The notes under the pieces: generated by a model
The model's input: the letters and a program-made list of their open reading frames with translations, nothing else
What the model was told of the DNA's origin: nothing
Database searches by the model: none
Shown here: one piece after another, positions 23,571-63,300 of the stretch
Numbering within the stretch: the stretch's first letter is position 1
How the letters are laid out: the number at the start of each line of letters is the position of its first letter
Translations under genes and position numbers: made by a program
Assembly: GCF_006345805.1 (NCBI RefSeq)
Contig: NC_043006.1
Coordinates: 84,630,001-84,694,000 of the forward strand
Length of the DNA: 64,000 bases
Direction of reading: 5' to 3'
From: Octopus sinensis
Lineage: Eukaryota

Positions 23571-23806
23571 TGACCATTCAAACATTGGTTATATCTAACG
23601 CAGTTACTACAGCGTCATAGTGACTTGAAAATGGCAAGATTAGCTTCATAGTTCGACAAGGACAACCTGTGTAACTGAAATTCACAAGACTTTTCTGTGT
23701 TTCTAATTTATAATACACACCTACACACACACACACACAACACACACACACACACACACACACACCACACACACACACACACGCACTCATGCATCACAAA
23801 TATGGA

Positions 23807-23889
23807 GGCTACATATGTTTCCTGGCTAGCAGAACCTCGGAAGTAATAATTACTCAACGAGGGGTACTCCACTAGCCATTCATCAGGCC
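23807..23889 (-). ncRNA. Hammerhead ribozyme motif with 58-nt stem II
   Basis: ggc-CTGATGA-a-tggctag..cctcg..cgagg..ctagcca-g-GAAAC-atat-GTA-gcc. Confidence 0.65.
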
Positions 23890-24036
23890 GAAGATACCCC
23901 AGTTATATGAAGGTCACATTGCCGTTAGGGAATCCCAAGTTAACCCGTCGAAGATTCAATTTATATGGTACCTTCGGTCTAGAAGCATTCATGATGAATG
24001 TGAGAACTTTACAGTTTCAAACAAACTACGAGGAGT

Positions 24037-24423
24037 GGATGGAAGCACTCCGTCGGTTACGACGATGAGGGTTCCGGTTGATCCGAATCAACGGAACAGC
24101 CTGCTCGTGAAATTAACGTGTAAGTGGCTGAACACTCCACAGACACGTGTACCCTTAACATAGTTCTCGGGGATATTCAGCGTGACACAGAGAGTGACAA
24201 GGCCGGCCCCTTGAAATACAGGTACAACAGAAACAGGAAGTAAGAGTGAGAAAAAGTTGTGGTGAAAGAGTACAGCAGGGATCACCACCATCCCCTGTCG
24301 GAGCCTCGTGGAGCTTTTAGGTGTTTTCGCTCAATAAACACTCACAACGCCCGGTCTGGGAATCGAAACCTCGATCCTATGACCTCGAGTCCGCTGCCCT
24401 AACAACTGGGCCGTTGCGCCTCC
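24037..24423 (-). mobile_element. SINE family C with 12-bp TSD
   Basis: TSD actacgaggagt at 24025-24036 and 24424-24435. An empty-site homologue lies at ~26460-26545. Confidence 0.9.
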
Positions 24424-24533
24424 ACTACGAGGAGTAGATACGAAAACATAAAAAGAATTTAAATTATATATCTGGAGAGTTAACTTCGGACTCCTTAACG
24501 ACAGTGTAACTTTAATACAACTAAGGTATTTTC

Positions 24534-24616
24534 GCCCTGATGAGCAGTCAGCGGATTGCCCCTCGTTCAATAGTTATTACTTCCGAGGATCTTCCAGCTA
24601 GGAAACATATGTAGCC
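24534..24616 (+). ncRNA. Hammerhead motif (decayed partner arm)
   Basis: CTGATGA at 24537, a 58-nt stem II with cctcg/cgagg, and GAAACATATGTA at 24602. Stem I is weakened. Confidence 0.5.
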
Positions 24617-24859
24617 TGGATATTTACCCACTCCATCCCATCAATTCGAATTGTTATTCACGTTCATAGCAACCCTAGTTGCTAACAGTGAACTATAGAA
24701 AAACCTATTTTCGGCTTATCGATCTTCGTTATAGGAAAAGCCTACAACCTTCTACACCAATAAACTATTATTGTTCCTGAAAGTTGTTTTTAATACCTAT
24801 CACGGACTGCCAGAAGCTTACTAACTTCCTACACCAAGATCTTTGGATCTTACAATTAC

Positions 24860-24890
<31 letters not shown>

Positions 24891-25599: not shown

Positions 25600-26158
25600 T
25601 ACAGACAAGAGCTAATCTCCCTCAAATTACATCCCAGTTTCTGCTGGATTAGAGCTAACCAGGGGTTAGATGAAACTAAATACTGTGATGTATTTTTAAA
25701 AATGCTAAAGGTCGCTCGATCTTCTAGAAAGAGAAATTAAATCTCTTTTAAATCATACCCCTCTGTCCGCCGGATTAGAGTTAATCTGGGACTAGACGAA
25801 ATTAAATAGAGTAATGTATTAAAAGAAGGTTTAAATGTCGCTCGGTCTGCGAAAAACATGAAATAAATCTCCGTCAATGTCCCACTTTCTGCCGAATCAA
25901 GGCTCATTTGAAGTTGCAACAGTTAAAGACGAAACTAAACACTAAGGTATTAAAAGAAAGTTAAAGAATGCTCGACCTGCAAGAGACAGTAGTCAAATCT
26001 CCCTCAAATTGCATCTCAATGATAGCTGGATTAGAGCCAATCTGGGACTTAACAGAGATAACAACCAAATCTCCCTCAAAATACGTGCCAGCGTAATCTG
26101 GATCAGCGCTGATACGAACCTAGACAGCAGTAAGGTACGAAACTAAATATTAAGGTAT
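25600..26158 (+). repeat. Degenerate ~125-bp tandem array
   Basis: Recurring aaatctccctcaaa..ctggattagag..gacgaaactaaa..gtattaaaagaa..gctcg, about 5 units. Confidence 0.7.
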
Positions 26159-26262: not shown

Positions 26263-26588
26263 TACATGCTAAAATAAAGACTTAAACAGCAAACAAGATT
26301 GACCAAAACAATTAGAACACTTGATTGGTGACATATAAATCGAATGATTAAAATCAAATTCAAGCGGCAACCTCTACACGAATTACAATGACATTACCTT
26401 TTATAAAGAGAAAGCAACATACTCCAACATTACTTCGTCCTGAAAGCGAGACCGTGATGGTTTAGAAACATTCTTGATGGATTTGAGAACTTTACAGTTT
26501 CAAGCAATCTACGAGGAGCAGATAAGAAAATATAAAAAATAAGATATAAAATATATTTCGTTGACAGTCGTATACTCTTTAGTCTATT

Positions 26589-60998: not shown

Positions 60999-61038
<40 letters not shown>

Positions 61039-61240
61039 AGTAGTTGAATGAATTATCTTATTAAGGATAATTCGAGAGATAACCGATACCTGGGTAGCAA
61101 TTAACATCAGAAAGAACACGGTTAAGCTACGTCCCTAGGGCATAGACTACGTGTCTTCGTGCGGAAATTTGTATGTTTATTTTAAAATTATAAGTATATG
61201 AAAGAATGGAGTTGAACGACTAGTTAACAAATATCCTTTA

Positions 61241-61323
61241 TTCTCGACATATGTTTCGAAGGCTGCATATTCCTAATTCCGAAGGAATAAGGAGTACATT
61301 ATGCAGATTTCTCATCAGGAAAA
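61241..61323 (-). ncRNA. Type-I hammerhead ribozyme, canonical core, 54-nt stem II
   Basis: ttttc-CTGATGA-gaa..ctgcata..tcct.attcc-ttc-ggaat.agga.tatgcag..ttc-GAAAC-atat-GTC-gagaa. Confidence 0.8.
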
Positions 61324-61883
61324 TCAAGGAACTTATGTCGACATCAAAATGCACAAAAACTTTTAGCTGACCGCTCTCAAGGAGCCCATGGCGATAATGA
61401 GTGTCTCTTTATAAGGAGTGACGTCAGAGTGGCTGAATGTAGAAGAATCTAGAAGGTTCTAAAGGTTCAAGGGTTCAAACGAAGTAGGAGGGGGGAGGCA
61501 TAAGAATAGTAAGTTGAGAGAGTGCAGGTCAAAAGAATGGTGGGTTTAAATGATTTCTGTTGTGAATGAGTGCCTGTGTGTATGACTGTATATAACTGTC
61601 TTAATGTGTGTATGTGTGTGTCTGAATGCGTGATTGTGTTTAAGGATGGGTAGATGTCAGAAAACTGACAGCTGTGAGGTGAGAGGTCTGTGTCTGTGTG
61701 TTCGATTATGTTTACTGTAGAGAAAGGAAAGTAGATAGCGAAAGGGAGAAAGAATCGGGCGAGGTGAGAGGCAACGCAAGAATGGATAGTAGTAATTGGG
61801 AATATAAGAAAATCTTTTTGACTGTTGGGGTGAAATATAGCAAAAATTGTTTTTGGAAATCGAGGGGTTATCTATATTAGTCA

Positions 61884-62840
61884 CTATTTATATGAGTGAA
61901 AGGTGTGTCTTTTCCAGTGTAAACACCTGTAGGATCTTTCGACGATTGTGTTTATTAAAGAGACTTTGGCGAACAAAATATGAAAAAGTTCGGAATTACA
62001 GATGCCACAAAATTTTCTGCCTTTATCAAACGGGAAGGACACCGACAAAATGGACCATTCGAGCTTGAACGTAGTGTTATTGTTCTTCAGACGCCAGACT
62101 AATTTGCTTAGCCCCGTGCTGTGTTGCTTTCTCTTATCTCTGAAAGTGGAATAATGGTTGGAGATCCTTTGGGCTAATTTAGAAGAGGTTGCGCCAATGT
62201 AGAAGTAGACATCGGTTCCAGAAGAGATTTTGCATTGGTAAGTGGTGTTTCTAATTTTGGAATTTTGGGATAAGAACTTTAATCTGTTGGGGTTGGTTTC
62301 CGATACTAAGACAGAGTTTTTATTGTTGTGATAGGTGTAAAAATTGTTGCTGGCTTTGGCCACGATACTATTCATCTTATTATCATTACTATTAGTTGTA
62401 ATATCGTCGGCAAATTCCCTGGCTATAGGAATGCTGCGATTGTTATCATCAATAATATAACTGTTATTAAGAATGCTGGTACTATTACCACCACTGTTAA
62501 TAATCTGGCTAATGTTATTATCATTATTACTATTGCTAACGCTAATGCTGCTATGAATGTTGCTAATATCCATACTACTTCTATTATTATTATTATTGTA
62601 TGTTACGTTGGAATGGGTAAGGGCGGTGTCGCTACTCATGGGTGATGAGACCCTATTTAGCAGCTTATTATTGTGGGAAGCTATTATCTGCAAAAGATTT
62701 TTAGTATTTGAGAATGCTATTCTTACTTTATGCGAATTTATAGTGGAGTAGTATTTAGAATTCCTAGGAAAATTCTTAGCAACGGCTTCACGGAATTGTA
62801 AAGGGAGATTAGACCTGATTTGTCTCCCGAAAGAAATCAC
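61884..62840 (-). pseudogene. PLE linker and GIY-YIG endonuclease ORF with Asn/Ser-rich insertion
   Basis: KNFPRNSKYYSTINSHKVRIAFSNTKNL..HN; TYQC..FYIGATS..RISNHYSTF..TGLSKLVW..WSIL..CGICNSE..CLH. Confidence 0.85.
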
Positions 62841-63300
62841 AAACCAGATATAGTTTTTTTTGTTCTTGGAATGGCTGAGAGTGTTGACATTTACATTAAA
62901 GGGTATATTTCTGTGTTGTAGAATGGGTTTTGGTTTACGCTGGCCTCCCCTGGTCCGTAAATTATTATTGTAAAATATATTTGTGTCGGCGTTGCTAGAG
63001 CTGAAATCACTATTTATGTTATTTATATTATTATTAGAAGTTATCTTATCTTGATGGGCAGATATTAGTTTAGGATGGGCCGGATCGATATATGATACCT
63101 TATCCCTATAACCGGCCTTTTACAAGGCGGCATTATAAAATTCTGCTTTCTGTTTAAAAATGTCAACATTTGCTGATAACTTTGATAGTCAAATATATAT
63201 AAAGTTAATCCAAACAAGAAAGCACAAAAAAACATAACTACGCGAGGACGTGGAACAAATATAGTATTATTGGACGCTCAGGAAAGAGGGAAGAAGGAGG

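What the first reader, a model, noticed from the sequence alone, without database searches (positions are those of the whole stretch)
23797..24625. Back-to-back element with a long-arm hammerhead on each strand
Seen: after removing a SINE C (12-bp TSD), a ~430-bp element remains with diverged inverted arms. Each arm ends in CUGAUGA-(58 nt)-GAAACAUAUGUA, pointing outward. The left ribozyme has a well-paired stem II (UGGCUAG/CUAGCCA, CCUCG/CGAGG, AGUAA/UUACU). The central spacer recurs uninterrupted at ~26460-26545, so the centre is multicopy. Known: PLE insertions often carry inverted terminal repeats. Inference: a non-autonomous PLE-derived family in which transcripts of either strand self-cleave. 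The cores are retained while the arms have diverged, which hints at selection.
Basis: partly seen in the sequence, partly recalled or inferred. Interest (0 to 1): 0.75.

Follow-up and report, generated by a model that had tools for sequence, protein, structure and literature searches.

The report
Decayed head-to-head Penelope retrotransposon insertion
This is an ordinary, old insertion of a Penelope-type jumping gene in which two copies of its ribozyme-bearing end repeat landed back to back, as they do at 31 of 76 sister sites checked; it is not a separate two-ribozyme element, and the ribozyme cores are no better kept than the DNA beside them.

Summary
The anatomy is real: inverted arms 23798-23966 / 24457-24625 (77%), each with CUGAUGA-58 nt-GAAACAUAUGUA, and a SINE with a 12-bp TSD. 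The arm is the pseudo-LTR of an abundant, old, protein-coding Penelope-like element with Hydra-clade motifs (RWK, DKT, CxCX5C linker, C-terminal GIY-YIG). The right copy runs on to 24860, the one-sided 'tail' typical of such insertions. Back-to-back pairs occur at 31 of 76 other loci, each with its own junction; none has this centre. The centre is a fragment of an unrelated repeat, likely copied from 2.4 kb away (85% identical; a 21-mer occurs only at these two places). The arms differ by 24%, like any two family copies (22%). Core positions mutate at the flank rate (96 observed against 103 expected; 23 against 20 in an independent set). The right stem II is broken. Opposite-strand hammerhead pairs from PLEs are in print (PMC4209133), and this scan noted two-armed PLE insertions elsewhere in this genome. 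Residual interest: a long 58-nt stem II that closes with G·G instead of G10.1-C11.1 in the family majority.

The parts
23798..23966 (-). Left arm: pseudo-LTR copy of the Hydra-type PLE (consensus positions 1-169), short 3' end, abutting a (CA)n tract
23810..23886 (-). Left type I hammerhead motif: CUGAUGA at 23886, 58-nt stem II (0 of 21 pairs broken, closing A·G), GAAAC at 23821, palindromic ACAUAUGU stem III, predicted cut after 23810
23967..23975 (.). Short junction filler between left arm and centre
23976..24036 (+). Centre, 5' part: fragment of an unrelated old minimal-hammerhead repeat (family B), likely copied from 26459 onward; includes first TSD copy 24025-24036
24037..24423 (.). Younger high-copy SINE-like insert, flanked by 12-bp TSD ACTACGAGGAGT (24025-24036, 24424-24435)
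24424..24457 (+). Second TSD copy and 3' part of the centre
24458..24860 (+). Right copy: pseudo-LTR plus about 235-bp tail (consensus 1-402), ending at a (TATG)n tract
24537..24613 (+). Right hammerhead motif: core intact, stem II with 5 of 21 pairs broken, closing G·G, predicted cut after 24613
26393..26558 (+). Decayed family-B repeat copy with its upstream context; likely donor of the centre (75 of 88 identical)

Best explanation
The stretch 23798-24860 is a decayed insertion of a protein-coding Penelope-like retrotransposon with Hydra-clade motifs, made of two copies of its hammerhead-bearing end repeat joined head to head, likely in a single insertion event. Likely mechanism: the element's GIY-YIG endonuclease cut microsatellite DNA, and its reverse transcriptase primed cDNA from both target ends, starting inside the RNA at the family's two preferred sites (about 190 and about 402 on the consensus); both cDNAs ran to the RNA 5' end at an initiator-like TCATT and were joined. 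About 90 bp of nearby DNA was likely copied into the junction by a template switch, at insertion or in later repair of the palindrome centre. A SINE then inserted into the filler. Since then both arms have drifted neutrally. The hammerhead is an inherited part of the end repeat, predicted to need a dimer or protein to cut; two outward-facing copies are a by-product of the inversion. Shown: family identity, coding linkage, variable junctions, two 3' ends, neutral decay, local twin of the centre. Inferred: priming order, start site, template switch.
For: Arm sequence continues upstream in longer copies through a 3' UTR into GIY-YIG and RT remnants; L096 is a near-full-length copy with inverted pLTR, tail, RT, EN and 3' pLTR. 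Motifs RWK, DKT, CxCX5C, CxxC and CxH match the Hydra clade text. Back-to-back pairs at 12 of 29, 12 of 24 and 7 of 23 other loci with junction gaps mostly -9 to +45 nt and variable breakpoints; usually one long and one short end. 3' ends cluster at 180-199 and 390-402; 5' ends at -7..+3 in 9 of 39 arms found by the 3' query, p 5e-5. Left-right difference 41 of 168 against a between-locus median of 21.7%. Core changes 96 of 930 (expected 103.0); 70 of 557 (67.0) in arms found by non-ribozyme queries; 23 of 194 (19.6) in a third set. Centre 75 of 88 identical to the 26459 copy, at most 65 of 88 to 14 other family-B loci; 21-mer with up to 1 mismatch at 2 places in 2.7 Gb. A young PLE family in the same window shows the same layout at birth: 11 of 18 loci back to back. 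Literature: inverted 5'-truncated copy and one-sided tail (PMC8557442; PMC3846280); dual hammerheads 100-700 bp apart on opposite strands (PMC4209133); two internal RT starts, both strands extended, ribozyme not needed for insertion in vitro (PMC11167929).
Against: The left arm is the only one of 76 arms with 0 of 21 stem II pairs broken and carries one A-U to G-C double change; but 0.87 such arms are expected among 76 by chance and its ribozyme-versus-flank test gives p 0.15. Double changes across copies are slightly above shuffles (32 against 24.1, 18 of 500), 12 of them at one CpG pair. A filler of about 100 nt is unusual: most junctions are direct. Centre and donor differ by 15%, less than the 22-24% between arms (p 0.07 and 0.02), so the filler may be younger than the arms. 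No TSD is visible at the outer ends (microsatellite flanks), so two separate insertions are not excluded. Pfam did not recognise this family's own decayed ORF pieces; GIY-YIG was hit only in a relative, below the curated cut-off. No tree was built.
Confidence: 0.87

Rival explanations
1. One reading: a non-autonomous PLE-derived family with fixed asymmetric arms and a shared centre, whose transcripts self-cleave on either strand, with cores kept by selection.
For: Both cores are letter-perfect; left stem II is fully paired; arms differ by 23-24%.
Against: Centre found at no other arm locus among L002-L110 and 23 further loci; 28 of 74 other arms also have intact cores, so both intact has chance about 0.14; core rate equals flank rate; right stem II broken; in a read-through RNA 126-128 of 169 arm bases pair with the other arm, which would mask both folds.
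Confidence: 0.03
2. Same parts, different history: the centre was host DNA already in place, or a later independent insertion of family B into the AT-rich junction, and the arms came from one or two PLE events.
For: The centre ends where most family-B copies fade out; PLEs tend to insert into or next to PLE copies (PMC6765202); centre-donor distance is lower than arm-arm distance.
Against: Family-B copies elsewhere are only 60-74% alike to the centre while the neighbour 2.4 kb away is 85%, and the 21-mer is unique to the two, which points to local copying, not independent transposition; AT-rich likeness between donor end and pLTR start offers microhomology.
Confidence: 0.07
3. The left copy alone has been kept as a working ribozyme or hairpin by the host.
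For: 0 of 21 pairs broken, one compensatory change, 4 changes in 83 ribozyme bases against 6 in 54 flank bases.
Confidence: 0.03

Closest known systems
Hydra-clade C-terminal EN+ Penelope-like elements (Craig et al. 2021, PMC8557442; passages and section 11 read)
   Same: RT then C-terminal GIY-YIG; RWK, DKT, CxCX5C linker, CxxC and CxH around E and N; hammerhead in the pLTR; microsatellite targets; inverted 5'-truncated copy with a tail at one end.
   Different: Tail here is about 210 nt between the two 3' ends, not 30-40 bp; stem II is 58 nt; family majority has G·G at 10.1/11.1. The paper's supplementary files with Hydra ribozymes were not read and may already show such long stems.
Minimal and variant PLE hammerheads (Cervera and De la Pena 2014, PMC4209133; parts 1-2 of 4 read)
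   Same: Type I, short stem I, palindromic stem III implying dimer cleavage; dual motifs 100-700 bp apart on opposite strands; mostly in truncated copies.
   Different: Helix II there is 6-8 bp with a conserved G10.1-C11.1; here about 21 bp with internal loops and no 10.1-11.1 pair in most copies.
Adineta vaga Penelope insertions (Arkhipova et al. 2013, PMC3846280; passages read)
   Same: Head-to-head inverted pLTRs most frequent; optional tail on one; Inr-like motif in the pLTR; host DNA captured between pLTRs.
   Different: Penelope/Poseidon clade; captured spacers described there are longer or not traced to a neighbour.
PAc Poseidon of Anolis (Frangieh et al. 2024, PMC11167929; passages and second half of main text read)
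   Same: Two internal RT start sites define the tail; both target strands are cut and extended; ribozyme dispensable for insertion in vitro.
   Different: Other clade; its ORF starts inside the ribozyme, here the coding remnants begin beyond the tail (L096).
Metazoan non-LTR retrozymes (bioRxiv 10.64898/2026.07.22.740005, part 1 of 5 read; PMC7229834, search listing only)
   Same: Non-coding, type I hammerhead, PLE-related.
   Different: Retrozymes are head-to-tail tandem units; this is head to head and the repeat is attached to a coding element.

Membership tests
EN+ Penelope-like element (Hydra clade) | RT followed by C-terminal GIY-YIG endonuclease upstream of the pLTR | tested here: met
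   tblastn of a relative's RT and EN onto copies that carry the arm; EN motifs in L094, L095; relative's EN hits Pfam GIY-YIG at E 8e-4, under the cut-off; homologues include 'Reverse transcriptase domain' proteins. The window's own insertion has no coding part.
EN+ Penelope-like element (Hydra clade) | RWK and DKT motifs in the RT N-terminal region | tested here: met
   RQIRWKAF and ADKTDN in L096, one copy only; definition
EN+ Penelope-like element (Hydra clade) | [quoted passage not shown] | tested here: met
   L094, L096, L097, L095
EN+ Penelope-like element (Hydra clade) | Placement in the Hydra clade by RT phylogeny | not tested
   No reference PLE set at hand; assignment rests on motifs
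EN+ Penelope-like element (Hydra clade) | pLTR with hammerhead; inverted 5'-truncated copy; tail at one end; microsatellite target | tested here: met
Neptune clade PLE | CX2-5CxxC linker rather than CxCX5C | tested here: not met
   Linker is CxCX5C; definitions. My first working label (Neptune) was dropped.
Type I hammerhead ribozyme | Core CUGANGA / GAAA / NUH | tested here: met
   Both arms
Type I hammerhead ribozyme | Stem II closed by G10.1-C11.1 | tested here: not met
   A·G left, G·G right; G·G in 60 of 86 family arms; G-C or G-U in 5 of 7 sister-family copies
Type I hammerhead ribozyme | Stems I-III form around the core | tested here: inconclusive
   Majority sequence and left arm fold stem II and a weak stem I; stem III only as a dimer; right arm misfolds. 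No Rfam hit. Covariation weak.
Type I hammerhead ribozyme | Self-cleavage | not testable with these tools
   Needs an in vitro assay
Fixed non-autonomous family (MITE-like or retrozyme) | Further copies of the whole arm-centre-arm unit, or head-to-tail units | tested here: not met
   searches score only the best 40 candidates each

The most novel reading that the evidence does not exclude
Octopod Hydra-type PLEs carry a distinct long-arm hammerhead class (about 58-nt stem II, palindromic ACAUAUGU stem III), and one abundant lineage spread with G·G in place of the near-invariant G10.1-C11.1 pair: either a new active natural core variant or in vivo evidence that a PLE can amplify with a crippled ribozyme; this locus in addition records twin internal priming plus a jump onto DNA 2.4 kb away.
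Probability: 0.3. Interest if true: 0.4.

Novelty: new member of a known kind. Interest (0 to 1): 0.16.

Why it matters
As a locus it matters little: it is a neutral fossil of a known insertion type. It is a useful caution that opposite-strand hammerheads in animal DNA arise routinely from PLE inversion and are no sign of a viroid-like or selected element. The family offers a small natural experiment on whether PLE ribozymes need to cut: a G·G lineage, a G-C sister lineage and a young intact lineage in one genome.

Tried and rejected
Rfam scans found no hammerhead; the long stem II lies outside the models. Pfam on five decayed ORF pieces gave nothing relevant; a homologue search with the EN piece for longer proteins found none among 34 candidates, weak evidence. 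Atlas look-up could not be run. Neptune assignment rejected. RNAalifold on 80 arms (80 of the 86 family arms) predicts no common structure. Footprint of in vivo cleavage: no cluster of 5' ends at the predicted cut (position 157) in 13 junctions inspected or 23 further loci, where one starts at 158 and one at 160; low power. RNA: 4 runs held as contigs (3 only guessed to be RNA) cover the SINE but not 23898-24005 or 24438-24581; contigs show no strand and a hole proves nothing. DNA contigs of 4 runs showed no SINE-free joint among the rows listed (154 joints not shown). Strict hammerhead pattern search downstream of 32 EN loci found the motif only in L106; a profile search then found a sister family. 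Lunse et al. on PLE hammerhead variants could not be read, so G·G closing pairs or long stems may be described there. Paper searches; none of the listings showed an octopus PLE hammerhead study, and subscription papers and supplements were not seen.

Full report
Observation. The arms are there: 23798-23966 and 24457-24625, 169 nt, 77% complementary. Each has CUGAUGA, 58 nt, then GAAACAUAUGUA, pointing outward. The SINE-like insert 24037-24423 has an exact 12-bp TSD, leaving 430 bp. The left stem II pairs as described. Rfam has no match. The genome is 2.72 Gb; named homologues of a related ORF come from octopods, so the host is likely an octopod (inference).

The arm is the end repeat of a coding PLE. 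The right arm finds 788 candidates, 40 scored, at 75-83%. Upstream, longer copies continue through about 800 bp of UTR into a GIY-YIG-type endonuclease and RT remnants. L096 is near full length: inverted pLTR, tail, RT, EN, UTR, pLTR. Its motifs RWK, DKT, CxCX5C, CxxC and CxH are those that define the Hydra clade (PMC8557442 section 11). I first called it Neptune and dropped that. Pfam missed the family's own decayed pieces; no tree was built.

Back-to-back pairs are routine and variable. After dropping duplicates, pairs occur at 12 of 29 loci (arm query), 12 of 24 (3' query, 5 duplicates dropped) and 7 of 23 (third query, 7 duplicates dropped). Breakpoints differ from locus to locus and most junctions are direct. 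Usually one copy ends near consensus 190 and the other near 402, the one-sided tail of PLE insertions; the window fits this (left 167, right 402). L012, L021 and L068 also have both arms starting near position 0, with other junctions. 5' ends cluster at an initiator-like TCATT (9 of 39, p 5e-5); a start site is inferred, a self-cutting site of the endonuclease is an alternative. A young, unrelated PLE in the same window (61020-63120, minus; 99-100% copies) shows 11 of 18 loci back to back with gaps of -10 to +2, so the layout exists at birth.

The centre is not part of the element. It hits only itself, 26459 and one distant locus, and none of the other arm loci. It belongs to an older repeat whose majority reads as a minimal hammerhead behind a TATA box. 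It is 75 of 88 identical to the neighbour at 26459, which keeps the upstream context, and at most 65 of 88 to 14 other loci; a 21-mer with one mismatch allowed occurs only at these two places. Local copying by template switch is the likely origin; its timing is open, since 15% is less than the arm-arm distance.

No sign of selection. Each arm is 13% from the majority (family median 10.7%); they differ at 41 of 168 sites (between-locus median 21.7%) and share one non-consensus base. Eleven core positions: 96 changes in 930 against 103.0 expected from base-matched flanks; 70 in 557 against 67.0 in arms found without a ribozyme query; 23 in 194 against 19.6 in the third set. 28 of 74 other arms have intact cores. 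Against my reading: the left arm is the only one of 76 with no broken stem II pair and has one compensatory change, but 0.87 are expected by chance and Fisher p is 0.15; double changes across 80 arms are mildly above shuffles (32 against 24.1), over a third from one CpG pair, and RNAalifold finds no common structure. The right arm has 5 of 21 pairs broken and misfolds. A read-through RNA would pair the arms with each other.

The ribozyme itself. The family majority folds a long stem II, a weak stem I and a palindromic stem III that implies dimer cleavage (PMC4209133). Position 10.1/11.1 is G·G in 60 of 86 arms, G-C or G-U in 5 of 7 sister-family copies, and G-C in the young family. The core is kept between lineages apart from N7, so the motif was likely functional in master elements; whether the G·G form cuts is untested. 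PAc inserts in vitro without ribozyme activity.

Known. Dual hammerheads 100-700 bp apart on opposite strands, inverted pLTRs, one-sided tails and captured host DNA are all in print. Earlier notes of this scan describe two-armed PLE insertions with two fixed ends in other families of this genome; none matched this sequence. Verdict: new member of a known kind, interest 0.16.

Noticed in passing
window 61020-63120, minus strand: Young 5'-truncated PLE (411-aa thumb plus EN frame at 63119-61887) with an intact long-stem-II hammerhead at 61318-61246, canonical G10.1-C11.1, same ACAUAUGU stem III; 1827 candidates, best copies 99-100% alike, 11 of 18 loci back to back. Best candidate for a cleavage assay.
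   Followed up: partly
window 26393-26558; L125: Old repeat family whose majority reads as a minimal hammerhead behind TATAAA; L125 holds a tandem array of about 90-bp units of it, retrozyme-like but with decayed cores.
   Followed up: partly
L108, L109, L110, L128, L130, L133, L134, L136: Sister PLE family with the same end repeat layout, CUGAAGA core and G10.1-C11.1 retained.
   Followed up: partly
window 23798-23966 and 24458-24626: Changes in both arms lean to A>G on the minus strand (about 12 against 5 the other way) while the unpaired tail is even (4 and 4), and CpGs are little decayed. Weak; could be transcription asymmetry or editing of a hairpin RNA, not tested.
   Followed up: no
L096 (oriented 520-2133): A 538-aa C2H2 zinc-finger frame ends about 440 bp before the inverted pLTR of a near-full-length PLE.
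   Followed up: no
window 25614-26158: Four diverged copies of a 51-nt repeat and a paired 34-nt repeat, unidentified.
   Followed up: no
L137 (2454-5006, minus): Related PLE with a 547-aa RT frame and a 303-aa EN frame separated by one stop; 67 homologues including octopod proteins.
   Followed up: partly
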